From an uncultured Candidatus Rokubacteria bacterium (GTDB lineage Bacteria; Methylomirabilota; Methylomirabilia; Rokubacteriales; CSP1-6), in assembly GCA_963841755.1 (NCBI GenBank), contig CAWJDX010000011.1, forward strand, positions 412,604 to 476,603: DNA of 64,000 bases, given 5' to 3'. A program made the position numbers and the translations under genes. Position 1 is the stretch's first letter, and each line of letters starts with the position of its first letter. This document shows, piece after piece, positions 39,897-58,110 of the stretch. The notes under the pieces were generated by a model. That model ran no database searches and was not told the origin of the DNA. It saw nothing but the letters and a program-made list of their open reading frames with translations.

Positions 39897-40709
39897 TCAG
39901 CTCTTGGGCGGCGGGTTGTCCCCGAACGCGCGCAGGAGCGGGGTGAAGAGGTCGAGCGGCAGGGGGAAGAAGGTCGTGGTGTTTCGCTCGGAGGCGACCT
40001 CGCGCATGGTCTGGAGGTAACGGAGCTGCACCGCGATCGGGAACCGCATGAGCACCTCGGCGGCCTCGCCCAGCTTGGCCGCGGCCTGGAACTCGCCCTC
40101 CGCGTTGATCACCTTGGCGCGCCGCTCGCGCTCGGCCTCGGCCTGCTTGGACATCGCGCGCTGCATGTCCTGGGGCAGGTCCACGTTCTTCACCTCGACC
40201 GCGGCCACCTTCACGCCCCACGGGCTCGTGTGCTGGTCGATGATCCGGGTCAGCTCCTCGTTGATCTTCTCGCGGCTCGCCAGGAGGTCGTCCATCTCCT
40301 GCTGGCCGAGCACGCTCCGGAGCGTGGTCTGGGCCATCTGGGAGGTCGCGTAGAGGTAGTCCTCCACGCTGATCACCGCCTTGGCCGCGTCGAGCACGCG
40401 GAAGAAGATCACCGCGTTGACCTTCACCGAGACGTTGTCGCGGGTGATCACGTCCTGCGGCGGCACGTCCATCGTGATCGTCCGCAGGCTCACCTTGACC
40501 ATCTTGTCGATGAACGGGATCAGGAGCACGAGCCCCGGTCCCGACCCCTCTCCTCCCGGATTGAAGATGGCGTTGGTCCGCCGGCCGAATCGGAAGATGA
40601 CCGCGCGCTCGTACTCGCGCAGGATCCGGAACGAGGAGAAGAAGATGTAGAGCAGGATCACCACCACCGGGATGATGCCGAAGAGGAGCTGGACGCCTTC
40701 CATGGGCAA
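39897..40709 (-). CDS. SPFH/band-7 (stomatin-like) protein.
   Basis: Intact 270-aa ORF with an N-terminal transmembrane helix and an SPFH core (...[16 protein letters not shown]...). Confidence 0.85.
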
Positions 40710-42042: not shown

Positions 42043-42083
42043 GGCGTCATCTTAGCACCGGCGCGGGCCTTCCCGCCGCCGCT

Positions 42084-43025: not shown

Positions 43026-43047
43026 GATGGCCTCCAGGAGGCCGCGG

Positions 43048-44265
43048 CTAGAGCTCGCCGCGCAGCGAGGCCACCGCGTCCGCCAGCCGCTGCACGTCTC
43101 CGGGCGTGCTGTAGACCGAGAAGCTCGCCCGCAGCGTGCCCGCGATGCCGAGGCACTTCATGAGCGGCTGGGCGCAGTGGTGTCCCGCGCGCACCGCGAT
43201 GCCGTGCTGGTCGAGGAGCGCGGCGCCGTCGTGGGGGTGAATGCCGTCGACGTTGAACGCCACCACCGCGCCCTTCATCTCCGGGTTCGCGGGCCCGTAG
43301 AGCGAGACGCCGGGAATGCGGGCCAGCGCCTCCATGGTCGCCGCGGTCAGCGCCTGCTCGTGGGCGCTCACCTGCCCCATGCCGAGCTTGCCCAGGTACT
43401 CGACCGCGGCGTGGAGGCCGACCGCGCCCGCGATCGGGGGCGTGCCCGGCTCGAAGCGCCACGGCAGGTCGTTCCACTGGGCGTGGTCGATCCAGACCTC
43501 CTTGATCATCTCGCCCCCGCCCCAGGCGGGCTCGAGGCGCTCGAGAACTTCGCGGCGCCCGTGGAGCACTCCGATGCCGGTCGGGCCGAGCATCTTGTGG
43601 CCGGAGAACGCATAGAAGTCCGCGCCAATGGCGGTCACGTCGACCGGCAGGTGCGGCACCGCCTGCGCGCCGTCGAGCAGCACCAGCGCGCCGACCCGGT
43701 GCGCCTGCTCGACCATCTGCGCCACCGGGTTGATGGTGCCGAGCACGTTGGAGACGTGGGCCAGGGCCACCACCCGGGTGCGCGGCGAGAGGAGCCGCGC
43801 GTAGGCCTCGAGGTCGAGGTAGCCCTCGGCCAGCACCGGAACCGCCCGCAGCACCGTGCCGCGGTCGCGGCACACCATCTGCCACGGGATCAGGTTCGAG
43901 TGATGCTCGAGCTCGCTCACCACGATCTCGTCGCCGGGAGCCAGGGTGCGCCCCACCGCCTGGGCCACGAGGTTGATCGACTCGGTGGTCCCGCGGGTGA
44001 AGATGACCTCCTCGCGGCCGCGCGCTCCGATGAAGGCGCGCACCGCGTCGCGCGCGCCCTCGTAGCGCTCGGTGGCTTCCTCGCCGAGGGTGTGGATCGA
44101 GCGGTGCACGTTGGCGTGGCTGGTCTCGTAGTAGCGCTGGATCGCCTCGATCACCGCGCTCGGCTTCTGGCTCGACGCGGCCGAGTCCAGATAGACGAGC
44201 GGGTGCCCGTTGACGATCCGCGAGAGGATGGGGAAGTCGCGCCGGCAGCGCTCGCCCAGGTTCAT
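43048..44265 (-). CDS. sufS: Cysteine desulfurase (SufS-type, class V aminotransferase).
   Basis: Intact 405-aa ORF with the PLP lysine (SGHKMLGPTG) and the active-site cysteine region (RAGHHCAQPL). Confidence 0.85.
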   Translation of the reverse strand: MNLGERCRRDFPILSRIVNGHPLVYLDSAASSQKPSAVIEAIQRYYETSHANVHRSIHTLGEEATERYEGARDAVRAFIGARGREEVIFTRGTTESINLVAQAVGRTLAPGDEIVVSELEHHSNLIPWQMVCRDRGTVLRAVPVLAEGYLDLEAYARLLSPRTRVVALAHVSNVLGTINPVAQMVEQAHRVGALVLLDGAQAVPHLPVDVTAIGADFYAFSGHKMLGPTGIGVLHGRREVLERLEPAWGGGEMIKEVWIDHAQWNDLPWRFEPGTPPIAGAVGLHAAVEYLGKLGMGQVSAHEQALTAATMEALARIPGVSLYGPANPEMKGAVVAFNVDGIHPHDGAALLDQHGIAVRAGHHCAQPLMKCLGIAGTLRASFSVYSTPGDVQRLADAVASLRGEL

Positions 44266-44269
44266 GGGG

Positions 44270-44659
44270 TCACCTCCCAGACTCGTGGGGTCCCTCGTTG
44301 GTGAGCGCGCCCTGCAGCACGGTGAGGGGCAGGGCCACGCACTTCATCCGGGACGGGCGGATATCGGAGTCGAGCCGCTCGAGGATGCTCTCGATCGTCA
44401 ACGCGCGGACCGTCGACGCAGGCTGGCCCGTCGCCATCTCCAGCAGCACGTCCGCGGACGCGGCCGAGATGGCGCAGCAATCGCCGGTCCACCGCCCCTC
44501 GACGAGCCGCCCGTCGGCGAGGTTCGCCTGGATGCGCACGCGGTCTCCGCAGAGCGGGTTCACGTCCTCTCCCGAGACGTCCGGCCGCTCGAGCGTGCCG
44601 CGGTACCGCGGCCGGCGGAACCGGTCGCGGATGACGTTGCTGTAGAGCGCCACGGTCAC
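44270..44659 (-). CDS. sufU: SufU/IscU-like sulfur-acceptor scaffold.
   Basis: 129 aa from the GTG at 44657-44659: ...NPLCGDRVRI...GDCCAISAASADVL...MKCVALPL. The start overlaps the upstream stop (GTGA). Confidence 0.8.
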   Translation of the reverse strand: MTVALYSNVIRDRFRRPRYRGTLERPDVSGEDVNPLCGDRVRIQANLADGRLVEGRWTGDCCAISAASADVLLEMATGQPASTVRALTIESILERLDSDIRPSRMKCVALPLTVLQGALTNEGPHESGR

Positions 44660-45708
44660 TCCGACAGCTCCCCGCGCGCGCCGCTCTTGCGGTAGGGCGG
44701 GAAGCGGTAGGCGCTGTCGCGCGACAGGAGGCCCCCGTGGCCGAGCGCGGCCAGCTCGGTCGCGCCGTCCGGCTCGCCGGCCAGGACGCGGGGCAGGACC
44801 AGATCGAAGGTGGTGGCCTGCGAGAACATCCCGCAGGCGGGCATGCCCAGCACCGGATGGCCGCGCAGGTCCGCGATCCAGAGCAGGCTGCCGGGATGGG
44901 CGGGCGCCCCGTGGCGGATCATCCGCCCGCCGAGGCGCTCGAGACCGGCGAAGACCGGATCGAGCGGATCGAGCGATCCGGCGCCCGCCGCGATCAGGAT
45001 CTGAGCCCCCGCGGCGAGCAGGCTCTCCATCTCGGCCGCGACCGCCCCCGCGTCGCCCGGCGTATAGCGCACCGGCAGGAGGCGCGATCCGAACCAGTCC
45101 ACCTTCTCGGTCAGCGAGGACTCGAACCGCTGGCGCTGGGGCGGGGCCAGGGTCTCTCGGCTCAGCGCCCCCAGGACGTGCGGGCGGAAGGTCTTCACCG
45201 CGACGAGGCCGCCCGCGCTCCACGCCCGCGACTCGGCGTCCTTCACGAGCCGCTCCGGGATCGCGAGCGGGGTGATCTTGGCTCGCGCGACCACCTCACC
45301 CGCCTCCACCGGCTGGAGATCGTAGAGGGTGAACACCGACATGCCCTCGAGCGCGTTCACCGCCGCGAGCGCGGCCACGTTCACCCGGACGAGGCCTCGG
45401 CGCTGGCCCGCGAGCGTCCACTGTCCGCCCGAGTAGCCCTTCACCTCGACCTGGTCGCCGCACGCCGCGGCGGCCAGCCGAGACCCGGCCGGCTCCTCGT
45501 GCACGTCGCCGGGGTCCAGCTCGAGCAGGTGCACCTCTCCGTCCCGCCACGGGAGCGCGAGCAGCTGGGCCGCCGCGGCCGCGTCGAGGGTCTGTCCCTT
45601 GGAGATCGCGATCCGTCCCGCTTCGTCCCGCACGTCGTGGCAGGCGATTCGCCCTTCGAGCGCGGCGGCGGCCGGCGAGGCCTCCTTCCGGATCGCAATG
45701 GCTCTCAT
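44656..45708 (-). CDS. MoeA-like molybdopterin-binding protein (MoCF-biosynthesis domain). Its exact function is unclear.
   Basis: 350-aa ORF. The C-terminal half resembles the MogA/MoeA fold (LIAAGAGSLDPLDPV...GMPACGMFSQATTFDLVLPRVLAGE). Confidence 0.6.
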   Translation of the reverse strand: MRAIAIRKEASPAAAALEGRIACHDVRDEAGRIAISKGQTLDAAAAAQLLALPWRDGEVHLLELDPGDVHEEPAGSRLAAAACGDQVEVKGYSGGQWTLAGQRRGLVRVNVAALAAVNALEGMSVFTLYDLQPVEAGEVVARAKITPLAIPERLVKDAESRAWSAGGLVAVKTFRPHVLGALSRETLAPPQRQRFESSLTEKVDWFGSRLLPVRYTPGDAGAVAAEMESLLAAGAQILIAAGAGSLDPLDPVFAGLERLGGRMIRHGAPAHPGSLLWIADLRGHPVLGMPACGMFSQATTFDLVLPRVLAGEPDGATELAALGHGGLLSRDSAYRFPPYRKSGARGELSE

Positions 45709-45717
45709 GCGCGCGTC

Positions 45718-46808
45718 TTACTTGAGGCCCCGGCGGACCTTCTCGGAGATCGGCATCCCGGTCGCCTTGCGCTGGACCGCGAGGGCCTCGGCCAGGATGC
45801 TGAGGGCGATCTCGGACGCGGACTGGGCGCCCAGGTCGAGGCCGATCGGCACCCGTACCCGCGCGAGCGGTCCTCGCTCACCCCGTCTTCGCGCAGCAGG
45901 TTCAGGATGGCGGCTCCGCGCCGCGTGCTGCCGAGGAGCCCGACGTAGCCGACCGGCGTGCCGAGCGCGTGGCGCAGCACCGGCAGGTCGTACTTGTAGT
46001 CGTGCGCCACCAGCACCAGCGCGGTGGTCGGGATGAGCGGCACCTGCTGAATCAGCTCGGACGGCACGCCGATCCGGAGCGCGTCCACGTGGGGGAAGCG
46101 CTCCGGGGTCGCGAAGCGGGGCCGCCCGTCGATCACGACGGTGCGGAAGCCGAGCTCCTTGGCCATCACGGTCAGCGGCATCGCCACGTGGCTCGCTCCC
46201 ACCACCAGGAGGATGGCGGGCGGGGTGAAGACCTCCGCGAAGGCCCGCACGTTCTCGAGAAAGAGGGTGCGCGACTTGCCCGCCTCCAGCGCCTGCCGGG
46301 CCTCCGCCGCGAAGCGCTCGTCGAGGAACGGATCGCCCAGGCTGCCCTCGCGGTCGCCCCGATCGAGGATCAGGAGCTTGGCCCCGTCGTGGGGCGGGTC
46401 GAGGCGCGTGACGATCGCGGCGCGGCCCCCGGTCTCGGCGTGAGCCCGCGCCTTCTCGTGGAAGGCGAGCGTGGCGTCGTCGGCCCGGTCGAGATCCAGC
46501 GGCTCCACGAACACCTCGATGGTCCCGCCGCACGTGAGCCCGATCTCCCACGCCTCCTCGTCGCCCAGGTTCAGCTCGAGCAGCCGCGGGGCGTTCTTGT
46601 CCATCACGTCGGCCGACTCCTCGATGACCTGGGCGTCCACGCACCCGCCGATGGTCACCGAGCCGAGCACGCGGCCTCCCTCGCCCACCAGCATCTTGGC
46701 CCCTTCCTTCCGGGGCGTGGTGCCGCGGGTGTTGACGAGCGTGGCCACCGCCACCCTCGACTCGTTCTGCTTGAGCTGGTTCAGCTGATCGAAGAGCTCG
46801 TCGCCCAT
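45718..46808 (-). CDS. xdhC: XdhC/CoxI-family Moco-insertion/sulfuration chaperone. The frame is broken near 45855.
   Basis: ORF 45705..47084 from the internal ATG at 46806-46808 (MGDELFDQLNQLKQNESRVAVATLVNTRGTTPRKEGAKMLV...). The C-terminus (...RVRVPIGLDLGAQSASEIALSILAEALAVQRK...) is the end of ORF 45718..46644, in an adjacent frame. Confidence 0.75.
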
Positions 46809-46816
46809 GGTCTCGC

Positions 46817-47971
46817 TTACCTCAGGTTGAGATGCCCGGCGAGATCCCGGAGGCTCGCCAGATTGTGCGCCGCCGCGAAGTGGTCCACGAGCGGCAGCGC
46901 CGCGGCCATGCCGCGGGTCAGCGGCTCGTAGGACGGGTTGCCGAGCAGCGGATTGAGCCAGATGAGCCGCCCCGCCTTGCGCTTGATGGTGAGCATCTCG
47001 TTGGCCAGGATCTCGGGCTCGCCGGTGTCCCACCCGTCCGACAGCAGGAGCACGATCGTGTGCCGATTGACCAGGCTCCCCCACCGCGCGTTGAACTCCT
47101 GCAGCGATTCGCCGATGCGCGTGCCGCCGGAGAAGTCCCGCACCTCGGTCAGGCGGGCCAGGGCCGTGCGGTAAGACGCACCCTTGAGATGCTCGGTGAC
47201 CCGCGTCAGTCGCGTGGAGAACGTGAAGGTCTCCACCCGGCCGAAGACGTTCTGGAGCGCGTAGAGGAACTGGAGGAGGAAGCGGCTGTAGAGATCCATG
47301 GAGCCCGAGACGTCGCAGAGCAGGACCAGCCGGACCTTGCGCCTCCGGCGCTCGCGTCTCCGCAGCTCGATGATCTCGCCCTTCATCAGATTGGCCCGGA
47401 TGCTCCGACGCATATCGATGACGCCCCCGCGCCGGGTCGGCCGCTTGCGGCGGCTGATGCGCCGCGCGAGCCGCTTGGCGATCAGGATGGTGAGCCGCGC
47501 CACCTCGTCCAGATCCTCAACCGGGAAGGACGAAAAGTCCTGATCCAGAAGGATTTCCTTGTCGCTGACGCCGGGCACCTCGAGCGGCTCTCCGTCGTCG
47601 TCCCCCTCCTCCTCCCAGCCCTCCAGCGCGACCGAGAGCTTCTTCTGGGCCGCCTCGGCCCCGCTGTCGCCCGCGTGCTCCTCGGGGATGGCGGGCGTGG
47701 CGGGTCCGGTGAGCCCTTCGAGCTCCTGGCCCTCCCCGGCCTGGAACCGCCAGAAGGTCTCGAAGCAGCGGTCGAAGATCGGGAACTCCTCGTACCGGGC
47801 CACCAGCGTGGTGCGAAGGGCCAGGTACACGTCCTGGCGGTCGAGCAGATCCACCATGTCGAGGGCCCGCACCCCGTCCATCATTTCGCCGATGGTGAGC
47901 GGCATCCCCGAGGCGCGCAGCATGTGGCCGAAGCGCAGCACCGCGGTGGTGAGATCGCGAGGGCCGGCCAC
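46817..47971 (-). CDS. coxE: VWA-domain protein of the CoxE family.
   Basis: Intact 384-aa ORF with the MIDAS motif (LLCDVSGSM). Confidence 0.8.
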   Translation of the reverse strand: MAGPRDLTTAVLRFGHMLRASGMPLTIGEMMDGVRALDMVDLLDRQDVYLALRTTLVARYEEFPIFDRCFETFWRFQAGEGQELEGLTGPATPAIPEEHAGDSGAEAAQKKLSVALEGWEEEGDDDGEPLEVPGVSDKEILLDQDFSSFPVEDLDEVARLTILIAKRLARRISRRKRPTRRGGVIDMRRSIRANLMKGEIIELRRRERRRRKVRLVLLCDVSGSMDLYSRFLLQFLYALQNVFGRVETFTFSTRLTRVTEHLKGASYRTALARLTEVRDFSGGTRIGESLQEFNARWGSLVNRHTIVLLLSDGWDTGEPEILANEMLTIKRKAGRLIWLNPLLGNPSYEPLTRGMAAALPLVDHFAAAHNLASLRDLAGHLNLR

Positions 47972-47972
47972 G

Positions 47973-48863
47973 CTACCCCTCGGCGGCCACGAAGCGCTTG
48001 AGCCCGCTCGAGGTCAGCTCCCGCTTGAAGCGCTTGACGTCGTCGGCGTCCTTGAGCACGCAGCCGAGGGTCTCGAGGACCAGCTCCTCGTCGATGTGGT
48101 CGGCGTGGAGCGAGGCCAGGGCCTGGGCCCAGTCCAGGGTCTCGGCCACTCCCGGCACCTTGGCGAGCCGGATGCTGCGCAGGCTCTCCATGAAGCGCGA
48201 GATCTGCCGGGCCAGGGCCTCGTTGACGCCCGGCACCTTGCGCATCACGATCCGGACCTCCTTGTCGAAGCCGGGGAAGTCCACCCAGAGGTAGAGACAG
48301 CGGCGCCGGAGCGCGTCGGAGAGCTCGCGCACCCGGTTCGACGTCAGGATCACGTACGGCGGATGCGTCGCCTTGAGGGTCCCGATCTCGGGGATCGTCA
48401 CCTGGAACTCGGAGAGGACTTCCAGCAGGAACGCCTCGAATTCCTCGTCGGCCCGGTCGACCTCGTCGATCAGCAGCACCGGCGGCTTGCCGTCCTGGCT
48501 GATCGCCTGCAGCAGCGGCCGGCGGATCAGAAAGGGCTCGGAGAAGATCGTGGCCTCCTTCTCCCGCAGGCTGTGGGTGGTGGACTCCTCGAGCTTGATG
48601 TGCAGCAGCTGCTTGGGGTAGTTCCACTCGTAGAGGGCCTGGGCCGCGTCGAGCCCCTCGTAGCATTGCAGCCGGATCAGGTTGGCGTGGAGCATCCGCG
48701 ACATCACCTTCGCGATCTCGGTCTTGCCCACGCCCGCGTGCCCCTCGATGAGGAGCGGCTTCTTGAGGGTCATGGCCAGGTGGACCGACGTGGCGATGGC
48801 GGGATCCGTCACGTAGTCGGCGCTCTCCATCATCTGCTGGATCTTCTCGATCTCGGGTCTCAT
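47973..48863 (-). CDS. coxD: MoxR-type AAA+ ATPase of the CoxD family.
   Basis: Intact 296-aa ORF with Walker A (GHAGVGKTEIAK) and Walker B (LLIDEVDRA). Confidence 0.85.
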   Translation of the reverse strand: MRPEIEKIQQMMESADYVTDPAIATSVHLAMTLKKPLLIEGHAGVGKTEIAKVMSRMLHANLIRLQCYEGLDAAQALYEWNYPKQLLHIKLEESTTHSLREKEATIFSEPFLIRRPLLQAISQDGKPPVLLIDEVDRADEEFEAFLLEVLSEFQVTIPEIGTLKATHPPYVILTSNRVRELSDALRRRCLYLWVDFPGFDKEVRIVMRKVPGVNEALARQISRFMESLRSIRLAKVPGVAETLDWAQALASLHADHIDEELVLETLGCVLKDADDVKRFKRELTSSGLKRFVAAEG

Positions 48864-48875
48864 GGCCCTCTCAGT

Positions 48876-49479
48876 CTACACCGCGTGGTTGGGACGGGTT
48901 GGCAGGTCGAGTGCGCTCCGGATCTTCTCATAGTCGGCCGGGGTATCGACGTCCTGGGGCATGGGCAGGTCGAGGACCACCCATTCGACGCGGGCGGGCT
49001 CCCGGGCGATGACCGGACGCGCGCCCTGGTCACCCTGGAGCGCCAGGAGCTCGGCGAAGATGACGCGGTCGAAGAGCACCGGGTTGCCGGGCCCGTCCTG
49101 GTAGCGGGGCGCGACGATCGGTCGGCCGCTCGCGCGGTGGGCCGCCAGCAGCGCCGGGATGATCGTCGGGGCGAGCGCCGGCTGATCGCCCAGCGCGACC
49201 AGCACCGTGTCCACCGTGTCGGGCAGCGCGGCGATGCCGGCGCGCACCGAGCCCGCCTGCCCGGCCTCGGGGGTCGGATTCACCACGATCCGCACGTCGA
49301 GCCCGGCCAGCGCCGCCTCGATCGGGGCGGGCGCGGGCCCGGTGACGACCAGCACCGGGTCGAGCCCCGCGGCCCGGACTCCCTCGACCGCGTGGCGCAC
49401 GATCGGGTGCCCGCCCACCGGGAGCAGCAGCTTGGCCTGCCCCATCCGGCGCGCGAGGCCGGCGGCCAGCACCAGCGCC
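48876..49479 (-). CDS. mocA: MobA/MocA-like molybdenum cofactor nucleotidyltransferase. The start is uncertain.
   Basis: It is the C-terminal part of ORF 48876..50159 (...LAAGLARRMGQAKLLLPVGGHPIVRHAVE...LGDQPA...). The candidate start is a GTG just downstream of the coxM terminator. Confidence 0.65.
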
Positions 49480-49498
49480 GCGATCAGGGCCGATCCCC

Positions 49499-49531
49499 AA
49501 AGAAGAACCCCGCGGGCTGTGTCCCGCGGGG
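49499..49531 (-). terminator. Intrinsic terminator after coxM.
   Basis: A 9-bp GC stem (CCCCGCGGG / CCCGCGGGG) with a 6-nt loop, followed on the minus strand by UUCUUCUUU. Confidence 0.5.
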
Positions 49532-49564
49532 CTCGGGGGTCGATCGGTCGGCTCAACAGGAGGC

Positions 49565-50428
49565 TTACTTCACGGCCGCGGCGGCCGCCTCCATCGCGCG
49601 CTTGGCGAACACGCGCAGCAGGTGGCTCTTGTACTCCACCGATCCCTGCAGGTCGGCCTGCACGTCCACGCCCTCGGCCGCCTTCTCGGCCGCCGCCTGG
49701 ATGGACGCGGCGTCGGTCCCCTTGCCGGTGATCGCGGCCTCGACGCCCTTGGCGCGTACCGCCTTGGTGCCGGCGCCGGTGATGCCCACGCTGGCCTTGC
49801 CCACCTTGCCGCCGTCCACGCTCAGCACCGCCGCCACGCCCACCACCGCGAAGCGCGAGGCCGGGTGCGGGAACTTCATGTACGCGGCGCCGGTCTTGGC
49901 CGCGAGCGCGGGCACGCGCACCTCGGTCAGGATCTCGTCCTCCGCGAGCGCGGTGGTGAGCAGGCCCTTGAAGAAGTCGTCGGCCTTGATCGTGCGCTTG
50001 CCCTTGGGACCCTCGGCGACCATCTCGGCGCCGAGCGCGATGATCGCGGCCGGGTAGTCGGCGGCCGGGTCGGCGTGGGCGAGGCTGCCGCCGATCGTGC
50101 CCATGTTGCGCACCATCGGGTCGCCGATCTGGGCCGCCACCGCGGCCAGGACCGGGCACTTCGACTTGACCACCGACGAGGACTCGACCTGGTAGTGCGT
50201 CGTCATCGCTCCGATCACCAGGGTGCCGCCCTCTTCCTTGATGCCGGAGAGCCCGGAGAGCTTCCGGAGGTCCACCAGGTGCTTGGGCTGAGCGAGGCGC
50301 AGCTTCATGGCGGGTAGCAGGCTGTGCCCGCCCGCCAGCAGCTTGGCGTCGTCCTTGTGGCGCCCGAGCAGGTCCAGCGCCTCCTTCATCGTCCCCGGCG
50401 TGTGGTACTCGAACTGGGCTGGGTACAT
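49565..50428 (-). CDS. coxM: FAD-binding medium subunit of a xanthine-dehydrogenase-family molybdoenzyme.
   Basis: It is the C-terminal 287 aa of ORF 49565..52162, from the ATG at 50426-50428 with an AGGGAG SD: [39 protein letters not shown].... Confidence 0.8.
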
Positions 50429-50442
50429 TGTCGGCGTCTCCC

Positions 50443-52805
50443 TTACTTCTTCGATTTGGCGGCCTGGGCGGTCTTCCAGACCCGCTCCGGCGTCATCGGC
50501 ATGGCGTCGATGTGATCCACGCCGAGCCCGGACAGGGCGTCCACCACCGCGTTGACCACCGCCGGCGTCGAGGCGATGGTGCCGGTCTCTCCCGCGCCCT
50601 TCACGCCCAGCGGATTGACCAGGGTGGGCGTCTCGGTGCGATCGGTCTCGTAGAAGGGCAGCATGTCGGCCTTGGGCAGCGTGTAGTCCATCATGCTGCC
50701 GCTGACGAGCTGGCCGGAGTCTCCGTCGTAGACCGCCTCTTCCCAGAGCGCCTGCGCGACGCCCTGGGCGATGCCCCCGTGCACCATGCCGTCCACGATC
50801 ATCGGGTTGATGACGTTGCCGACGTCGTCGACCGCGAGGTAGCGGAGGATCTTCACGTGGCCGGTGTCCGGATCCACCTCCACCACGCAGGCGTGGGCCC
50901 CGAACGGGAAGCAGAAGTTGGAGGGATCGTAGAAGCTCGTCTCCTCGAGACCGGGCTCCACCCCCTCCGGGTAGTTGTGCGGCACGTACGCGGTCAGCGC
51001 GACCTGGCCGAACGGGATCGCCTTCTGGGGCGACCCCTTGACCACGAAGTTGCCGCCCACGTACTCCATGTCCTTCGGGTTCGCCTCGAGGAGATGGGCC
51101 GCGATCTTCTTGCCCTTCTCCTTGATCTTGTCGAGCGACATCACGATCGCGGTGCCGCCCACCGAGGCCGAGCGGCTGCCGTAGGTGCCCATGCCGAACG
51201 GTACCCGGCCGGTGTCGCCGTGCACGATCTCGATGTCGTCCATCGGGATGCCGAGCGAGTCGGCCACGATCTGGGCCATCGTCGTCTCGTGCCCCTGCCC
51301 GTGCGAGTGCGAGCCGGTGAAGACGCTGACCTTGCCGGTCGGGATGCACCTGGACCTTGCCGGACTCCCAGAGCCCGGCCTGGGCTCCGAGCGAGCCGAC
51401 GACCTTGGAGGGCGCGATGCTGCAGGCCTCGATGTAGGTCGAGAAGCCGATGCCCATCAGCCGGCCCTGCGCGCGGGCCGCGGCCTGGTCGGCCCGGAAC
51501 TTCTTGTAGTCGAGCATCGTCAGCAGCTTGTCGAGGGCGCCGCCGTAGTTGCCGCTGTCGTAGGAGAGCGCCACCTTCGTCTGGTAGCCGTTGTCGAACT
51601 TGGGGATGAAGTTCTTCCGGCGGATCTCGACCGGGTCCATCTTGAGCGCGGCCGCCGCCGCGTCCATCATGCGCTCGAGCAGGTAGCAGGCCTCGGGGCG
51701 CCCCGCCCCGCGGTAGGCGTCCACCGGGGTGGTGTTGGTGAAGACCCCGGTGACCTCCGCGTGGATCGCGGGCCACTCGTACACCCCGTTGAGCAGGGTG
51801 GCGTAGAGATAGGTCGGCACCGCCGGCGCGAAGGTGGAGAGGTAGGCGCCCAGGTTCGCGGTGGTCTTCACCCGCAGCCCCAGGAGCTTGCCGTCCTTCG
51901 CGACCGCGACCTCGGCGTCGGTCACGTGATCCCGCCCGTGGGCGTCGGTCTGGAAGGCCTCGCGGCGCGACGACGTCCAGCGGATCGGCCGCTTGATCTG
52001 CTTGGTGGCCCAGGTGCAGACCGTCTCCTCGTTGTAGAGGAAGATCTTGGAGCCGAAGGCGCCGCCCACGTCGGGCGCGATGACCCGCACCTTGTGCTCC
52101 GGGATGCCGAGCACGAAGGCGGTCATCAGGAGCCGGTGCACGTGGGGGTTCTGCGAGGTCACCCAGAGCGTCCAGTCTCCCGGTGGAGTCGTCGTAGCGC
52201 GCCACGCAGGCGCGCGGCTCCATCGGATTGGCCACCAGGCGCTGGTTGATGATGCGCTTCTTCACCACCACCGGGGCCGCCTTGAACGCGGCGTCGGTCG
52301 CGGCCGCGTCGCCGATCTGCCACTTGAAGGCCTCGTTGTTCGGGGCCACCTCGTGGATCTGGACCGAGCCCTTGGCGGCCGCCTTCTCGGTGTTGGTCAC
52401 CGAGGGCTGGACGTCCCAGTCGACCACCACCAGCTCCGCCGCGTCGCTCGCGGCCGACTGGCTCTCCGCGATGACGATGGCCACCGGGTCGCCCACGTAG
52501 TGGGCCGCGTCGGAGGCGAGCGGCATGTGGGGCGGGATCTTCAGCTCGGGCAGGAGCCAGCCGCACGGCAGCGAGTTCACCCCGGCCATGTCCTTGCCGG
52601 TGAAGATCGCGACGACGCCCGGGGCCTTCGACGCCTTGCCGGTGTCGATCTTGCGGATCTTGGCGTTCGCGTGCGGGCTGCGCACGAAGACCGCGTGGGT
52701 CAGGCCGGCCAGCTTCAGGTCGTCGGTGTAGTTGCCCTTGCCGGTGATGAACCGGGGGTCCTCACGCCGCTTGATGCTCGCGCCGAGCACACGCGCGGTG
52801 GCCAT
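50443..52805 (-). CDS. coxL: Molybdopterin-binding large subunit with the form-II CODH-like active-site loop AYRGAGR. The frame is broken near 51355 and near 52170.
   Basis: Three consecutive ORF pieces lie in three frames: 51141..52805 ([29 protein letters not shown]...), the middle of 49565..52162 (...[15 protein letters not shown]...[21 protein letters not shown]...) and 50443..51279 ([14 protein letters not shown]...[20 protein letters not shown]...). Each junction reads through if one base is removed. Confidence 0.8.
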
Positions 52806-52814
52806 GGTCGTCTC

Positions 52815-53288
52815 CTACTTCCCCGCCATCTTCTCGGCGGCGTACTGGATGGCCTTGACGATGTTGTGGTAGCCCGTGCAGCGGCACAGGTTGCCTTCGA
52901 GGTCGTGGCGGATCTGGGCCTCGGTGGGCCGCGGATTGCGCTGCAGCATCTGGTGGGCGGACATGATCATGCCCGGCGTACAGAAGCCGCACTGCAGTCC
53001 GTGCTTCTCCCAGAAGCCCTCCTGGATCGGATGGAGCTTGCCGTCCTTGGCCAGGCCCTCGATGGTCAGCACCTGCGCGCCGTCGCACTGGACCGACAGC
53101 AGCGTGCACGACTTCACCGCCACGCCGTTGACGTGCACCGTGCAGGCTCCGCACTGGCTCGTGTCGCAGCCGACGTGCGTGCCGGTGAGGCCGGCCAGCT
53201 CCCGGATGTAGTGCACGAGCAGCAGCCGCGGCTCCACCTCGTGGGATTGGGGGGCACCGTTGATCGTCATCGACACGGTCTTTTTCAC
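52815..53288 (-). CDS. coxS: [2Fe-2S] small subunit of a xanthine-dehydrogenase-family molybdoenzyme.
   Basis: ORF 52815..53336 trimmed to the GTG at 53286-53288, with a GGAGG 7 nt upstream. The cysteine motifs are [11 protein letters not shown] and CGFCTPGM. Confidence 0.85.
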
Positions 53289-53360
53289 CGCGCTACCTCC
53301 TGAGTGAAGGGTCCGAGGCCGGGAAAGCGCCCCCAACCGTAGTCCCGGCCGGGGGTTCTG

Positions 53361-54615
53361 TCAAGGGGACGAGAGGAGCCGGCGGCCCTCGGTGCGCGCC
53401 TGCTCGAGGACCTCGCGCACCGCGAGGCCCCGGTCGCGCGCGATGCGGCGGATCTCCTCGAACTCGGGGGTCACCGTGATCGCCCGCCCGTCGAGCCGGG
53501 AGACCTTGAAGGTCACCGGGCCGTGCGCGGTGTCGAGCCGGACCATCTCGCGCTCGAGGCGGGCGCGCTGGTAGGCGGTCCACCGCACGCCGATGGTCGG
53601 GGACTCCTCGAAGAGCAGCCGGGAGAGGTCGGCCACCCGGCCCGGCTCGCAGAGGGCGGTCAGGACCACCCCGGGGCGGCTGCGCTTCATGATGACCGGG
53701 GTGAGCCAGGCGTCCAGGGCGCCGCTCTCGAGCAGGCGCTCGAGCAGCGGCTCGTAGAGCTGGGGCGACATGTCGTCCACCGTGGTCTCGACCTGGATGA
53801 TGGTCTCGGTCGGGGTCCCGGTGGGCGCGGCCACCGCCGCCTCCCCGACGAAGACCCGGAGCACGTTCGGGGTCTCGAGCTCCATGGTCCCCGCCCCGTA
53901 GCCCACCGCGGTCACCCGCATCGCCGGCATCGCGCCCGCGCCGGCGGCCAGGGTGGTCAGGATGGCGGCCCCGGTCGGGGTCACCAGCTCCCGGCGGATC
54001 CCGGTGTCGAGGGTCGGGAAGCCCTTCAGCAGCTCCGCGGTGGCCGGGCCCGGCACCGGGATGCGCCCGTGCGGGCCGTCGATGAACCCGCCGCCCACCG
54101 GGAGCGCGCCGAAGTGGACCGCGTCGATGCCGAGCAGGTGGAGGCCGATGCAGGAGCCGGTCACGTCCACGATCGCGTCGATCGCGCCCACGTCGTGGAA
54201 CTGCACCCGCTCGGGGGTGGTGCCGTGCACCCGGGCCTCGGCGTCGGCGAGCCGGCGGAAGACGCGGGAGGCCATGTCGCGGACCTCGGGCGCCAGGCGG
54301 CTCCGCGTCGAGGATGGCCAGGATCTCGCCGAGCCCCCGATGTCCCGCCGGGTGGTGCGGCTGGTGCGCGCCCGGGTCCGGCACGCGTCCCATGTAACCC
54401 GGGTCGCGATCGTAGCCGGCCAGGTGCACGTCGATCTTCGTGGCGCGGAAGCCGGCCTTCATCACCTCCGAGCGCTCGAGCCGGTAGCCCTCGACGCCGA
54501 GCCCGGCCAGCTCGCGCTCGAGGGTCTCGAAGGGGACGCCCGCGTCGACCAGCGCGCCCAGGATCATGTCGCCGGAGGCGCCGCTCGGGCAGTCGAAGTA
54601 CGCGAGCTTGAGCAA
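53361..54615 (-). CDS. larC: LarC (nickel-pincer nucleotide cofactor nickel insertase). The frame is broken near 54290.
   Basis: The N-terminus, from the TTG at 54613-54615 (MLKLAYFDCPSGASGDMILGAL...HQPHHPAGHRGLGEILAILDAE), lies in the frame of ORF 53293..56133. The C-terminus is ORF 53361..54275 (MASRVFRRLADAEARVHG...VQFHDVGAIDAIVDVTG...). The junction is cctGgcgcccgag. Confidence 0.75.
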
Positions 54616-54617
54616 GC

Positions 54618-57192: not shown

Positions 57193-58110
<918 letters not shown>

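What the first reader, a model, noticed from the sequence alone, without database searches (positions are those of the whole stretch)
43048..53288. Self-contained Moco maturation and sulfuration module (sufS-sufU-MoeA-like-xdhC-coxE-coxD-mocA) fused to a form-II CODH-like coxS-coxL-coxM
All genes run on the minus strand with overlapping or near-abutting ends. Moving from the upstream (high-coordinate) end to the downstream end, the order is:
1. coxS (2Fe-2S)
2. coxL
3. coxM (FAD), followed by a terminator
4. the MocA-like cytidylyltransferase
5. the CoxD MoxR ATPase
6. the CoxE VWA protein
7. the XdhC chaperone
8. a MoeA-like molybdopterin-binding protein
9. the SufU-like scaffold
10. the SufS-type cysteine desulfurase

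Enzymes of the xanthine-oxidase family need a terminal sulfido ligand. That ligand is delivered by a cysteine desulfurase acting on XdhC-bound Moco. A desulfurase/scaffold pair dedicated to, and translationally coupled (GTGA) with, the XdhC/MoeA genes would be an unusually explicit genomic encoding of that step. No sufBCD accompanies sufSU.

The CoxL active-site loop reads AYRGAGR, not the form-I VAYRCSFR. The substrate is therefore probably not CO, and is unknown.
Basis: partly seen in the sequence, partly recalled or inferred. Interest (0 to 1): 0.55.

Follow-up and report, generated by a model that had tools for sequence, protein, structure and literature searches.

The report
Sulfur-delivery genes in molybdoenzyme operon
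A soil bacterium (Rokubacteria) keeps a cysteine desulfurase and a small sulfur-carrier gene inside the gene set that matures a CO-dehydrogenase-like molybdenum enzyme; the same pairing recurs in at least three bacterial phyla, which points to a dedicated, apparently undescribed way of putting the essential sulfur atom on the molybdenum cofactor.

Summary
All ten genes are present on the minus strand at 43048-53288, in the stated order. In this window coxL (two 1-base insertions) and xdhC (one 1-base deletion) are not intact reading frames. Near-identical metagenome contigs carry them intact, and essential secA is broken the same way, so these are assembly errors, not pseudogenes.

The enzyme is a form-II-like CoxSLM hydroxylase with an AYRGAGR loop. 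A conserved promoter precedes coxS. A conserved terminator follows coxM. Seven tightly packed maturation genes come next.

The main result is comparative:
- The "SufU" is a short subfamily. It keeps three Cys and one Asp but lacks the SufU insertion and scores below the SufU cutoff.
- It lies directly after XdhC or the MoeA-like gene in about nine gene arrangements, in Rokubacteria, Nitrospirae and Acidobacteriota.
- Several of those clusters encode genuine form-I CO dehydrogenase (AYRCSFR).
- SufS accompanies it in most, but not all, of these clusters.
- Housekeeping sufCBDSU operons differ in gene order and carry a long SufU.

This supports a dedicated cysteine-to-molybdenum sulfur relay, but on genomic context alone. 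I could not test whether the genome has another desulfurase. I rate it a new variant of a known kind, interest about 0.6.

The parts
53336..53364 (-). Promoter-like element TTGACA-N17-TACGGT upstream of coxS. The -35 hexamer overlaps the larC stop codon.
   Evidence: Read directly from the sequence. The -35 TTGACA is invariant, and the -10 TA(C/G)NNT sits at fixed 17-nt spacing, in 20 aligned relatives whose flanks have diverged. The generic consensus scan did not call it, because the -10 matches only 3 of 6 positions.
52815..53288 (-). coxS: small subunit carrying two [2Fe-2S] clusters, 157 aa, GTG start.
   Evidence: Pfam Fer2_2 122.9 bits plus Fer2. The best NCBIfam name is glyceraldehyde dehydrogenase gamma, 248 bits against a cutoff of 290.
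50443..52805 (-). coxL: molybdopterin (MCD) large subunit with the form-II-like loop AYRGAGR at 51698-51718. In this window it is split over three frames by 1-base insertions near 52182 and 51340.
   Evidence: The Pfam profiles Ald_Xan_dh_C, MoCoBD_1 and MoCoBD_2 continue across the three frames. Contigs L003 and L004, 98.6-99.0% identical, carry an intact 786-aa gene. TIGR02416 scores 725 against a cutoff of 991; glyceraldDH_alpha scores 682 against 790. The closest solved structures are Mo-Cu CODH large chains.
49565..50428 (-). coxM: FAD-binding medium subunit, 287 aa.
   Evidence: An identical protein on five JGI contigs carries FAD_binding_5 and CO_deh_flav_C. NCBIfam glyceraldDH_beta scores 328 against a cutoff of 350.
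49495..49534 (-). Intrinsic-terminator-like hairpin (12-bp stem, 10 G-C pairs, 6-nt loop) followed by TTCTTCTTT, between coxM and mocA.
   Evidence: Found by the terminator scan. The same hairpin position occurs in more than 20 related loci, with changed loops and compensatory stem changes.
48876..49472 (-). mocA-like molybdenum cofactor cytidylyltransferase. The GTG start is as called on near-identical contigs; a CTG five codons upstream aligns with the GTG start used in relatives.
   Evidence: Pfam NTP_transf_3 142 bits. TIGR03310 scores 161 against a cutoff of 186. Gene call on L004.
47973..48863 (-). coxD: MoxR-type AAA+ ATPase, 296 aa.
   Evidence: Pfam AAA_5, AAA and AAA_3. The top NCBIfam hit is the MadB family AAA ATPase, 279 against a cutoff of 475.
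46817..47971 (-). coxE: von Willebrand A protein, 384 aa. Its GTG start lies 1 nt after the coxD stop.
   Evidence: Pfam VWA_CoxE 204 bits against a cutoff of 26.4.
45718..46808 (-). xdhC-family Moco chaperone. In this window a 1-base deletion at 45870 shifts the last ~50 codons into another frame.
   Evidence: XdhC_CoxI plus XdhC_C. Profile positions 1-97 are in one frame and 94-124 in the other. The gene is intact at 363 aa in L001 and L002. NF045664 scores 240 against a cutoff of 350.
44656..45708 (-). MoeA-like molybdopterin-binding protein, 350 aa. Its C-terminal half resembles the MogA / MoeA domain III fold, and it has a near-invariant Cys292.
   Evidence: No Pfam or NCBIfam hit. phmmer against the PDB finds MoeA 1uz5 at E=0.0025, aligning residues 164-309. 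The AlphaFold2 model has mean pLDDT 82.9. Foldseek finds gephyrin E, MoeA and Cnx1E at E about 1e-7, and MoaB/MogA for the C-terminal domain. The family has 2094 representatives. Fusions to MocA, CoxG and FmdE occur.
44270..44659 (-). Short SufU-like sulfur-carrier candidate, 129 aa. Its start overlaps the MoeA-like stop (GTGA).
   Evidence: Pfam NifU_N 70.6 bits. TIGR01994 SufU scores 67 against a cutoff of 92.5. It aligns to B. subtilis SufU and to archaeal IscU. Cys37, Asp39, Cys63 and Cys107 are conserved, and the SufU insertion is absent.
43048..44265 (-). sufS: type II cysteine desulfurase, 405 aa.
   Evidence: Pfam Aminotran_5 497 bits. TIGR01979 scores 566 against a cutoff of 475. The PLP lysine motif SGHKMLGPTG and the catalytic cysteine motif GHHCAQP are visible in the translation.

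Best explanation
**What it is.** A two-tier operon for a xanthine-oxidase-family hydroxylase together with its own late-stage cofactor maturation line.

**Tier 1: the enzyme.** A conserved sigma-70-type promoter drives coxS-coxL-coxM. These encode a three-subunit enzyme (2x[2Fe-2S], Mo-MCD, FAD) of the form-II CODH-like type. Its substrate is unknown.

**Tier 2: maturation genes.** A conserved intrinsic terminator after coxM probably lets only some transcripts continue into seven tightly packed genes.

**Inferred pathway:**
1. The MoeA-like protein binds Mo-molybdopterin and hands it on.
2. MocA adds CMP to make MCD.
3. XdhC holds the cofactor.
4. SufS takes sulfur from cysteine as a persulfide.
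5. SufS passes the sulfur to a cysteine of the short SufU-like carrier.
6. The carrier delivers the sulfur to the molybdenum centre to make the essential Mo=S. This happens either on XdhC/MoeA-like-bound cofactor before insertion, or, with the CoxD ATPase and CoxE, on cofactor already seated in CoxL.

In sister clusters the same module sits beside genuine form-I CO dehydrogenase. There the delivered sulfur would be the bridging sulfido of the [CuSMoO2] site.

**Shown here:** gene identities, operon anatomy, the distinct SufU-like subfamily, and its conserved linkage to XdhC, MoeA-like and MocA genes.

**Inferred:** every biochemical step, the direction of sulfur flow, and read-through of the terminator.
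For: **1. Anatomy.** The ten genes are identified. The seven accessory genes are separated by -4 to 12 nt, and the MoeA-like stop overlaps the sufU start.

**2. Linkage counts.** Of 92 related loci with MoeA-like identity of at least 38% and at least 500 nt of downstream flank, 87 have the sufU-like gene directly downstream. Of 65 loci with at least 1900 nt of flank, 58 also have sufS.

**3. The linkage survives rearrangement.**
- coxMSL-coxD-coxE-coxG-mocA::xdhC-xdhC-MoeAl-sufU-sufS (L044/L133).
- coxMSL-coxG-xdhC-xdhC-MoeAl-sufU-sufS (L129).
- coxL-xdhC-coxD-coxE-coxG-xdhC-MoeAl-sufU-sufS on a 4.6-Mb contig (L131).
- A hydroxylase with no FAD-subunit gene called in the locus, then mocA-xdhC-sufU-sufS, in a Nitrospirae MAG (L132).
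- coxMSL-mocA-xdhC-xdhC-MoeAl-sufU-coxG (L068, L114).
- xdhC-MoeAl-sufU-mocA (L059, L074, L102, L110).
- A minimal mocA-xdhC-sufU cassette with 4-11 nt overlaps in Acidobacteriota (L124-L128).

**4. The SufU-likes form one group.** They are 38-64% identical to each other, 27-38% to B. subtilis SufU and 25-33% to E. coli IscU. All keep the Cys/Asp/Cys/Cys set and lack the SufU insertion.

**5. Contrast with a housekeeping operon.** In Dehalococcoidia the operon is sufC-sufB-sufD-sufS-sufU(148 aa)-sufT. The gene order is the opposite and the SufU is long.

**6. Precedent.**
- R. capsulatus NifS4 sulfurates Moco bound to XdhC, and MoeA hands Moco to XdhC (PMC2997495; PMC13653126).

**7. Link to form-I CODH.** CoxL proteins with the AYRCSFR loop lie next to this module in L044, L068, L114, L129 and L024.
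Against: - There is no experimental evidence. Everything rests on gene context.
- SufS here is an ordinary, full-scoring SufS. A relative of the module's SufS (the L044 copy, 57% identical to the window's) is 60% identical to a housekeeping SufS. It could therefore serve general Fe-S assembly as well, or only that.
- I could not check whether the genome has another desulfurase.
- Within Rokubacteria, synteny also extends to unrelated neighbours (larEBC upstream; agmatinase, nfeD and band-7 downstream). Conservation inside that phylum alone is therefore weak evidence.
- Some MoeA-like clusters lack the sufU-like gene (L077, L099, L106, L035-L040). Several have sufU-like without sufS.
- In haloarchaeal megaplasmids the same short SufU-like (38% identical) abuts a MogA-like gene inside a cobalamin/metal-chaperone cluster. 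That leaves room for a metal-handling role rather than sulfur transfer.
Confidence: 0.55

Rival explanations
1. Housekeeping SufS-SufU that merely lies next to the cox accessory genes. It would feed general Fe-S cluster assembly. Its conservation would reflect inherited synteny, not function.
For: - SufS passes the SufS family cutoff. A relative of the module's SufS (L044) is 60% identical to a SufS inside a canonical sufCBDSU operon.
- Rokubacterial synteny also covers unrelated genes on both sides.
- No second desulfurase could be looked for.
Against: - The sufU-like gene stays attached to xdhC, MoeA-like or mocA through about nine different arrangements in at least three phyla, often without sufS and never with sufBCD.
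- It overlaps its upstream Moco gene by 4-11 nt.
- It is a distinct short subfamily that scores below the SufU cutoff.
- Gene order is U then S, the reverse of the housekeeping operon.
Confidence: 0.13
2. A dedicated Fe-S supply. SufS plus a NifU_N-type scaffold would build the two [2Fe-2S] clusters of CoxS rather than sulfurating molybdenum.
For: - The protein has the NifU_N fold with three conserved cysteines and IscU-like length. It aligns without gaps to an archaeal IscU.
- The enzyme needs four [2Fe-2S] clusters per dimer (established knowledge of the family).
Against: - The gene is always beside cofactor-handling genes (xdhC, MoeA-like, mocA), not beside coxS.
- Acidobacterial cassettes are just mocA-xdhC-sufU.
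- The histidine that precedes the last cysteine in IscU scaffolds is absent; that position is variable.
- The CxISxAS and NPxCGD motifs are SufU-like. B. subtilis SufU is a zinc-dependent sulfurtransferase (molecule name in PDB 5xt5).
Confidence: 0.12
3. A metal chaperone. The Cys3-Asp site of the SufU-like protein would carry Cu(I), Zn or another metal for the active site or for the pterin-handling proteins.
For: - YHS (putative metal-binding) domains are fused to XdhC or MocA in the sister clusters; in those where CoxL could be read (L129, L133) it is form-I.
- The haloarchaeal homologue sits among CobW-type GTPases, a metal ABC transporter and a MogA-like gene.
Against: - The gene is present in clusters whose enzyme has no Cu site (the AYRGAGR type here; the hydroxylase in L132).
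- It is usually paired and translationally coupled with a cysteine desulfurase.
Confidence: 0.08
4. Sulfur (or selenium) supply for another step. Candidates are the dithiolene sulfurs of molybdopterin, a labile selenium ligand as in selenium-dependent hydroxylases, or LarE of the neighbouring nickel-pincer cofactor genes.
For: - Distant MoeA-like homologues lie in xdhC-yqeC-mocA clusters typical of selenium-dependent hydroxylases (L035).
- JGI annotates relatives as cysteine desulfurase/selenocysteine lyase.
- larE-larB-larC lie directly upstream of coxS.
Against: - No moaD, moaE, moeB, selD or yqeC is in the cluster.
- The lar genes are absent from the non-rokubacterial clusters that keep sufU-sufS.
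- Where lar genes are followed by MoeA-like plus a tungsten AOR, there is no sufU (L046/L047).
Confidence: 0.07
5. The cox cluster in this organism is decaying: coxL and xdhC are pseudogenes, so the module is non-functional here.
For: There are two frameshifts in coxL and one in xdhC in the window sequence.
Against: - Contigs from other metagenomes that are 98.6-99.7% identical have intact genes.
- Codon-position GC bias stays strong through all frames.
- The same kind of 1-base indel breaks essential secA and four upstream genes.
- Related long-contig 'MFD' MAGs show many such splits (L016, L034). This is the signature of assembly error.
Confidence: 0.04

Closest known systems
Rhodobacter capsulatus XdhC-NifS4 Moco sulfuration (with MoeA handing Moco to XdhC)
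   Same: An XdhC-family chaperone plus a PLP cysteine desulfurase are proposed to create the Mo=S ligand before or at insertion. A MoeA-type protein feeds XdhC (PMC2997495; PMC13653126).
   Different: - The accounts of NifS4 read here do not place it in the xdh operon. It was found there by an interaction screen and appears essential.
- Here the desulfurase is a SufS type encoded in the operon.
- An extra small SufU-like carrier and a dedicated MoeA-like paralogue are present.
- The cofactor is probably MCD, because mocA is present.
Oligotropha carboxidovorans coxMSL-coxDEFG maturation of Mo-Cu CO dehydrogenase
   Same: The CoxD AAA+ ATPase, CoxE VWA protein and an XdhC-family protein follow the structural genes. 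CoxD is required for sulfuration of the Mo site (PMC4240915).
   Different: - The window's CoxL has AYRGAGR, not AYRCSFR, and scores below the CODH model cutoff.
- Gene order is SLM, not MSL.
- Pelzmann et al. state that the sulfur source in that system is unknown. To my knowledge its cluster encodes no desulfurase, SufU-like or MoeA-like gene.
- Sister clusters found here combine true form-I CoxL with the SufU-like/SufS module.
Bacillus subtilis-type SufS-SufU (sufCDSUB) sulfur transfer pair
   Same: A type II desulfurase is paired with a NifU_N-fold partner that keeps the Cys, Asp, Cys, Cys zinc/sulfur-acceptor set and has no histidine before the last cysteine.
   Different: - The partner is about 20 residues shorter because the SufU-specific insertion is absent.
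- It scores 67 against a 92.5-bit cutoff for TIGR01994.
- Gene order is U then S.
- There is no sufBCD or sufT; the neighbours are Moco genes. Compare the Dehalococcoidia operon.
Eukaryotic Moco sulfurase (ABA3 / MOCOS)
   Same: A SufS-like desulfurase works with a Moco-binding module that receives the persulfide sulfur and sulfurates the cofactor of XO-family enzymes (PMC13653126; PMC2997495).
   Different: The eukaryotic enzyme is one polypeptide with a MOSC domain. Here the functions would be split over SufS, the SufU-like carrier and the XdhC/MoeA-like proteins, none of which has a MOSC domain.
Accessory clusters of selenium-dependent molybdenum hydroxylases (xdhC/yqeB, yqeC, mocA; a NifS-like gene in some genomes)
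   Same: Distant MoeA-like homologues (about 33% identical) lie with split xdhC, yqeC and mocA in Desulforamulus (L035). A desulfurase-like gene linked to hydroxylase maturation has, from my own recollection of the literature, been noted in such systems.
   Different: - There is no yqeC or selD here.
- That branch of the MoeA-like family carries a C-terminal Cys-rich tail and has no sufU-like neighbour.
Archaeal glyceraldehyde dehydrogenase (three-subunit Mo enzyme; NCBIfam NF041018-NF041020)
   Same: It gives the best-scoring named model for CoxS and CoxM and the second best for CoxL.
   Different: All three scores fall below the curated cutoffs: 248 against 290, 682 against 790, and 328 against 350. 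The window's enzyme is therefore not an equivalog, and its substrate remains open.

Membership tests
Xanthine-oxidase-family three-subunit hydroxylase (CoxSLM type) | A small subunit with two [2Fe-2S] domains; a large subunit with the hammerhead domain plus two Moco-binding domains; a medium subunit with an FAD-binding domain. | tested here: met
   Fer2 plus Fer2_2; Ald_Xan_dh_C plus MoCoBD_1 plus MoCoBD_2; FAD_binding_5 plus CO_deh_flav_C.
Form-I aerobic CO dehydrogenase (Mo-Cu) | Active-site loop AYXCSFR with the Cu-binding cysteine, and a score above the TIGR02416 cutoff. | tested here: not met
   The loop is AYRGAGR. TIGR02416 scores 725 bits against a cutoff of 991.
Form-II CODH-like (putative) group | AYRGAGR active-site loop in a CoxL-like large subunit. 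This definition comes from my knowledge of the coxL literature. | tested here: met
   [12 protein letters not shown] at 51698-51718. No phylogeny was made.
SufS (type II cysteine desulfurase) | Score above the TIGR01979 cutoff, with the PLP lysine and catalytic cysteine motifs. | tested here: met
   566 bits against a cutoff of 475. SGHKMLGPTG and GHHCAQP are in the translation.
SufU (zinc-dependent sulfurtransferase) | Cys, Asp, Cys, Cys ligand set, with no histidine before the last cysteine. | tested here: met
   NPLCGD, CCAISAAS and RMKC are aligned to B. subtilis SufU.
SufU (zinc-dependent sulfurtransferase) | The SufU-specific insertion of about 19 residues before the last cysteine, and a score above the TIGR01994 cutoff. 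| tested here: not met
   The insertion is absent in the window protein and in all module-linked relatives. The score is 67 bits against a cutoff of 92.5, matching only profile positions 3-86 of 137.
SufU (zinc-dependent sulfurtransferase) | Encoded with sufBCD in a suf operon. | tested here: not met
   The neighbours are the MoeA-like gene and sufS, then agmatinase. No SUFBD_core protein was found in the window. Compare L134.
IscU-type Fe-S scaffold | A conserved histidine before the third cysteine and the LPPVK motif; a score above the TIGR01999 cutoff. | tested here: not met
   The position holds Lys, or a variable residue in relatives, and there is no LPPVK motif. The score is 28 bits against a cutoff of 192.
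MoeA (molybdenum insertase) | Four-domain architecture recognised by the MoeA_N, MoCF_biosynth and MoeA_C profiles. | tested here: not met
   No Pfam or NCBIfam hit at E<=0.01. The protein is 350 aa, against about 400-420 aa for the MoeA, gephyrin E and Cnx1E chains matched.
MoeA (molybdenum insertase) | Fold resemblance, including the MogA-like pterin-binding domain. | tested here: met
   Foldseek gives E 1e-7 to 1e-5 and probability 1.0 to gephyrin E, MoeA and Cnx1E, though the query-normalised TM-score is only about 0.32. MoaB/MogA match the C-terminal domain with a target-normalised TM-score of about 0.6. Relatives hit PF00994.
XdhC/CoxF/CoxI Moco chaperone family | XdhC_CoxI N-terminal domain plus the XdhC Rossmann domain. 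| tested here: met
   Both Pfam domains are present. The equivalog models score below their cutoffs (TIGR02964 100 against 162; NF045664 240 against 350), so the subfamily is unassigned.
CoxD/CoxE maturation pair | A MoxR-type AAA+ ATPase followed by a VWA_CoxE protein. | tested here: met
   AAA_5, AAA and AAA_3; VWA_CoxE 204 bits.
MocA (MCD-forming cytidylyltransferase) | MobA-like NTP transferase domain, and the TIGR03310 equivalog score. | tested here: inconclusive
   NTP_transf_3 scores 142 bits. TIGR03310 scores 161 against a cutoff of 186.
Dedicated Moco sulfuration system (functional class) | Sulfur transfer from the desulfurase to chaperone-bound Moco; physical interaction with XdhC. 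| not testable with these tools
   Only gene context is available.

The most novel reading that the evidence does not exclude
The short SufU-like protein would be a previously unrecognised, dedicated molybdenum-cofactor sulfurtransferase. It would take a persulfide from SufS (operon-encoded or housekeeping) and install the terminal or bridging sulfido ligand, working with XdhC, the MoeA-like protein and CoxD. It would do this in form-II-like hydroxylases and in genuine Mo-Cu CO dehydrogenases. That would make it the missing sulfur donor of aerobic CODH maturation.
Probability: 0.4. Interest if true: 0.75.

Novelty: new variant of a known kind. Interest (0 to 1): 0.6.

Why it matters
Every xanthine-oxidase-family enzyme is inactive without its Mo=S ligand. 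In bacteria the donor is known experimentally for only a few systems, such as NifS4-XdhC in Rhodobacter. For aerobic CO dehydrogenase, the authors of the maturation model state that the sulfur source is unknown (PMC4240915).

CoxL-like enzymes are among the most abundant dehydrogenases in soil genomes and proteomes, and most are of unknown substrate (PMC6784897).

A conserved, operon-encoded SufS plus short SufU-like pair gives concrete candidate proteins for the sulfuration step. It also gives a sequence signature for finding them and a set of co-expression partners (mocA, coxD, coxE, xdhC, MoeA-like, sufU-like, sufS). Those partners may be what is needed to produce active form-II and form-I enzymes heterologously.

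The result also warns that proteins auto-annotated as "iron-sulfur cluster assembly scaffold" may do something else.

Tried and rejected
1. **Pseudogene reading of coxL and xdhC: rejected.** Near-identical contigs are intact, and essential secA and four upstream genes carry the same kind of 1-base indel.
2. **Pfam and NCBIfam on the MoeA-like protein: no hit**. Structure prediction and fold search were needed instead.
3. **A 34-sequence alignment of distant MoeA-like proteins** was too diverse to seed a metagenome scan. A smaller alignment worked.
4. **The generic promoter scan found nothing** in 42000-54500. An alignment of relatives nevertheless shows an invariant TTGACA with a -10-like element 17 nt away.
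5. **Rfam at gathering thresholds** found only one tRNA in the window. There is no Moco riboswitch or other leader.
6. **A literature search for "MadB/MadC"**, the NCBIfam names that best match CoxD and CoxE, gave nothing relevant.
7. **A search for papers mentioning both SufU and XdhC found none.** Papers with NifU plus XdhC or SufS plus XdhC do not describe this linkage, judging by titles, abstracts and term counts; only PMC2997495 and PMC13653126 were opened.
9. **The NifU-like protein in the Microvirga ossetica cox-like cluster** is only 27% identical, lacks the Asp and the third Cys, and belongs to another subfamily. I did not count it as a member.
10. **The haloarchaeal MogA-like neighbour** of the short SufU-like gene shows no BLAST similarity to the MoeA-like protein.

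Full report
**Source and sequence quality**

The window is about 70% G+C. The MoeA-like protein of the finding is encoded identically on JGI metagenome contigs. Its relatives are labelled Candidatus Rokuibacteriota or Methylomirabilota. The rest of the window carries ordinary chromosomal genes: a peptide chain release factor (PCRF and RF-1 domains), ftsY, smc, secA, recN, M16 peptidases and ABC transporters.

A codon-position GC plot shows the coding frame switching inside coxL (twice), inside xdhC, and in the genes upstream of coxS. Pfam profiles run on across the switches:
- MoCoBD_1 positions 1-60 are in one frame and 64-244 in the next.
- MoCoBD_2 positions 2-63 are in one frame and 70-283 in the next.
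- XdhC_C positions 1-97 are in one frame and 94-124 in the next.

Contigs from other metagenomes are 98.6-99.7% identical over the regions compared and carry an intact 786-aa CoxL and a 363-aa XdhC. The window differs from them by 1-base insertions at about 52182 and about 51340, and by a 1-base deletion at 45870. It also has insertions in larC, larB, larE and pfkB.

Essential secA is broken in the same way. Its C-terminal zinc motif [13 protein letters not shown] lies in another frame. Related 'MFD' MAGs with long contigs show many such splits (L016, L034). I conclude that the frameshifts are assembly errors, not gene decay.

**Anatomy**

All ten genes are on the minus strand.

| Gene | Coordinates |
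|---|---|
| coxS | 52815-53288 |
| coxL | 50443-52805 |
| coxM | 49565-50428 |
| mocA | 48876-49472 |
| coxD | 47973-48863 |
| coxE | 46817-47971 |
| xdhC | 45718-46808 |
| MoeA-like | 44656-45708 |
| sufU-like | 44270-44659 |
| sufS | 43048-44265 |

The gaps between successive genes are 9, 14, 92, 12, 1, 8, 9, -4 and 4 nt. The GTGA overlap joins the MoeA-like stop to the sufU start.

The 92-nt gap after coxM holds a 12-bp, G+C-rich hairpin followed by TTCTTCTTT. The same hairpin, with different loops and compensatory stem changes, sits at this position in more than 20 relatives.

Upstream of coxS, TTGACA-N17-TACGGT (53336-53364) overlaps the larC stop. The -35 hexamer is invariant, and a TA(C/G)NNT element keeps the 17-nt spacing, in 20 relatives whose flanks have diverged. 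The generic scan missed it.

There is no room for a promoter between the hairpin and mocA. The maturation genes are therefore most simply expressed by read-through at a lower level. This is an inference.

No Rfam family other than one tRNA was found in the window.

**The enzyme**

CoxS, CoxL and CoxM have the domain set of a three-subunit xanthine-oxidase-family hydroxylase. The active-site loop reads AYRGAGR.

| Subunit | Model | Score (bits) | Cutoff (bits) |
|---|---|---|---|
| CoxL (full length) | aerobic CODH, TIGR02416 | 725 | 991 |
| CoxL (full length) | glyceraldehyde dehydrogenase alpha | 682 | 790 |
| CoxS | glyceraldehyde dehydrogenase gamma | 248 | 290 |
| CoxM | glyceraldehyde dehydrogenase beta | 328 | 350 |

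So the enzyme is neither a form-I CODH nor an equivalog of any named enzyme. "Form-II-like, substrate unknown" stands. This agrees with the view that most soil coxL homologues are not CO dehydrogenases (PMC6784897).

**Accessory proteins**

CoxD is a MoxR-type AAA+ ATPase. CoxE carries the VWA_CoxE domain. XdhC has both XdhC domains. MocA has the MobA-like transferase domain, just under the MocA equivalog cutoff.

The 350-aa "MoeA-like" protein has no Pfam or NCBIfam hit. The evidence for its identity is as follows.
- A weak sequence match to domain III of Pyrococcus MoeA (E=0.0025).
- An AlphaFold2 model (mean pLDDT 82.9) finds gephyrin E, MoeA and Cnx1E at E about 1e-7. Its C-terminal half superposes on MoaB/MogA.
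- The family is large: 2094 representatives at 50% clustering.
- It occurs fused to MocA, to CoxG and to FmdE.
- In cultured bacteria it is annotated merely "molybdopterin-binding protein".
- A P-x-C-G cysteine (Cys292) and a GG motif (G325, G326) are nearly invariant across the family, whether or not a sufU-like gene is adjacent.

It is MoeA-like by fold but not a canonical MoeA.

SufS is an ordinary SufS: TIGR01979 scores 566 against a cutoff of 475, and the PLP lysine and catalytic cysteine are present.

**The SufU-like protein**

It has the NifU_N fold but scores 67 against the 92.5-bit SufU cutoff, matching only the N-terminal 86 profile positions.

Aligned to B. subtilis SufU (PDB 1xjs and 5xt5), it keeps the Cys, Asp, Cys, Cys set and has no histidine before the last cysteine. 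It lacks the SufU insertion of about 19 residues. For that reason it aligns without gaps to an archaeal IscU.

Module-linked relatives from Rokubacteria, Nitrospirae and Acidobacteriota are 38-64% identical to one another. They are only 27-38% identical to B. subtilis SufU and 25-33% to E. coli IscU.

**Neighbourhood conservation**

I anchored on the MoeA-like protein and fetched 36 loci from species-representative genomes and 80 from metagenomes. I then mapped the window's proteins onto them by tblastn.
- Among loci at least 38% identical, with at least 500 nt of downstream flank, 87 of 92 have the sufU-like gene directly downstream.
- With at least 1900 nt of flank, 58 of 65 also have sufS.

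Most of these loci are Rokubacteria. There the synteny also includes unrelated genes (larEBC upstream; agmatinase, nfeD and band-7 downstream). On their own, then, the counts prove little.

The informative cases are the rearranged ones.

| Loci | Arrangement |
|---|---|
| L044/L133 | coxMSL-coxD-coxE-coxG-mocA::xdhC(YHS)-xdhC-MoeAl-sufU-sufS, with 4-nt overlaps at the xdhC/MoeAl, MoeAl/sufU and sufU/sufS junctions |
| L129 | coxMSL-coxG-xdhC(YHS)-xdhC-MoeAl-sufU-sufS |
| L131 (4.6-Mb contig) | coxL-xdhC(YHS)-coxD-coxE-coxG-xdhC-MoeAl-sufU-sufS |
| L132 (Nitrospirae MAG) | (2Fe-2S) subunit, Mo subunit, mocA-xdhC-sufU-sufS; no MoeA-like, CoxD or CoxE |
| L068, L114 | coxMSL-mocA-xdhC-xdhC-MoeAl-sufU-coxG; no sufS |
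| L059, L074, L102, L110 | xdhC-MoeAl-sufU-mocA; no sufS |
| L124-L128 (Thermoanaerobaculia and other Acidobacteriota) | mocA(YHS)-xdhC-sufU, with 4-11 nt overlaps where xdhC and sufU-like abut (77-nt gap in L124); no MoeA-like, sufS or sufBCD |

Every one of them landed in an xdhC context.

By contrast, a Dehalococcoidia SufS 60% identical to the L044 SufS lies in a canonical sufC-sufB-sufD-sufS-sufU-sufT operon. There the order is S then U, and the SufU is long (148 aa).

The conserved core is therefore xdhC (with or without the MoeA-like gene and mocA) plus the short SufU-like gene. SufS is a frequent but dispensable neighbour.

**Link to genuine CO dehydrogenase**

The CoxL encoded beside this module in L044/L133, L129, L068 and L114 carries the form-I loop AYRCSFR. 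In the Rokubacteria MAG locus L024, a form-I coxMSL is inserted between a form-II coxSLM and the shared accessory genes.

**Mechanism**

The established bacterial model is that XdhC receives Moco from MoeA and that a cysteine desulfurase (NifS4) sulfurates it on XdhC (PMC2997495; PMC13653126). Eukaryotes fuse a SufS-like domain to a Moco-binding domain.

The module here supplies all the corresponding parts as separate, translationally coupled genes, plus a SufU-type persulfide acceptor. I therefore favour (confidence 0.55) a relay: cysteine to SufS persulfide, to a SufU-like cysteine, to Mo on XdhC- or MoeA-like-bound MCD. Alternatively, with CoxD and CoxE, the sulfur goes to cofactor already in CoxL. 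Where sufS is absent, a housekeeping SufS would feed the carrier. Every biochemical step is inferred.

**Rivals**

- Housekeeping SufSU adjacent by chance: 0.13.
- A private [2Fe-2S] supply for CoxS: 0.12.
- A metal chaperone: 0.08. This is encouraged by the YHS fusions. It is also encouraged by haloarchaeal megaplasmids, where a 38%-identical short SufU-like gene abuts a MogA-like gene in a cobalamin/metal cluster.
- Sulfur or selenium for another step: 0.07.
- A decaying locus: 0.04.

**Novelty**

The library holds no paper with both SufU and XdhC. The 2026 review of the sulfido ligand still describes only XdhC-NifS4 for bacteria.

The proteins are auto-annotated as "iron-sulfur cluster assembly scaffold protein", "cysteine desulfurase" and "hypothetical" or "molybdopterin-binding protein".

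I classify the finding as a new variant of a known kind: chaperone-assisted Moco sulfuration. It has testable candidates for an open question in CODH maturation. Interest 0.6.

Noticed in passing
window 13969-16866 (secA; frame change near 14750), 54305, 54942, 55596, 56188: Single-base indels break essential secA. Its C-terminal zinc motif is in another frame. They also break larC, larB, larE and pfkB relative to 98.6%-identical contigs. The window probably comes from a long-read assembly with residual indel errors, so any reading-frame-based annotation of it needs care.
   Followed up: partly
L050 4697-7060; also L051, L054, L091, L101, L108, L123: In several relatives, coxD carries an in-frame insertion of about 480 aa right after Walker B (IDEIDR|CVAARTL...VITHN|CDEEFEAF), with LAGLIDADG-like blocks. 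This is an intein with a homing endonuclease. The window's CoxD (IDEVDR-ADEEFEAF) has none.
   Followed up: partly
window 53361-56133 (larC, larB, larE) and 56200-57360 (pfkB kinase); L003 809-4636: A complete larE-larB-larC set (nickel-pincer nucleotide cofactor synthesis) lies directly upstream of coxS and is syntenic across Rokubacteria. No larA-type user enzyme was seen nearby. In L046/L047 the same lar genes are followed by a MoeA-like gene and, in L046, also by a tungsten-type aldehyde:ferredoxin oxidoreductase instead of the cox genes.
   Followed up: partly
L024 1319-5012: In one Rokubacteria MAG, a form-I coxMSL (AYRCSFR) is inserted between the form-II coxSLM and the mocA-coxD-coxE-xdhC-MoeAl-sufU-sufS genes. 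One maturation module may therefore serve two enzymes.
   Followed up: partly
L124 5309-6625, L125 6165-6965, L129 3884-4852, L131 1244-2233, L133 5692-7296: YHS (putative metal-binding) domains are fused to XdhC or MocA in the sister clusters (form-I CoxL confirmed in L129 and L133) and in the acidobacterial clusters. They are possible copper-handling counterparts of CoxF.
   Followed up: no
L138 6410-7372 and L139 6410-7372 (Halorubrum and Haloarcula megaplasmids): A 129-aa short SufU-like gene, 38% identical to the window's, starts 1 nt after a MogA/MoaB-like "molybdenum cofactor synthesis domain" gene. The pair lies in a cluster with two CobW-type GTPases, a cobalt-factor II methyltransferase and metal transporters. 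The pairing of a short SufU-like gene with a pterin-binding-domain gene may be older and broader than the cox context.
   Followed up: partly
L136 5298-5759 (Microvirga ossetica plasmid): A cultured alphaproteobacterium has a different, 153-aa NifU_N-like gene between coxG and a divergent xdhC-xdhC-MoeA-like-mocA set, next to a cox-like enzyme. This protein has two Cys, no Asp and no third Cys. It may be an independent recruitment of the fold and a tractable organism for experiments.
   Followed up: partly
window 42084-43025, 40723-42042, 39897-40709, tRNA 39760-39832: An agmatinase gene (TIGR01230, 197 bits against a cutoff of 174) starts 22 nt after sufS. It is followed by nfeD, a band-7/SPFH gene and a tRNA. 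It is co-directional and syntenic in Rokubacteria but absent from the non-rokubacterial modules, so it is probably unrelated to the cofactor pathway.
   Followed up: partly
Alignment A4: P0185, P0187, P0222, P0230, P0241, L035 9842-10867: The Firmicutes/Deltaproteobacteria branch of the MoeA-like family ends in a Cys-rich tail (C-x2-C-x-YP-x-CPFGK). The tail is absent from the window's branch, which has RFPPY instead. It may bind a metal or an Fe-S cluster.
   Followed up: no
window 24342-25265 (+) and 28000-39000: A plus-strand reading frame has a phage T4 gp5 C-terminal (VgrG-like) repeat match. A stretch of lower G+C (0.61-0.67) contains a PLD-like gene and a 420-aa reading frame with no Pfam hit (34925-36187). 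This may be a horizontally acquired island.
   Followed up: no
L013, L015, L018, L019, L033 (record titles): Contigs 84-87% identical in the MoeA-like protein, and fully syntenic with Rokubacteria, are filed under MAGs named Deferrimicrobiaceae, Dormiibacterota, Verrucomicrobiia, Acidoferrum and Limnocylindria. They are most likely mis-binned Rokubacteria contigs.
   Followed up: no
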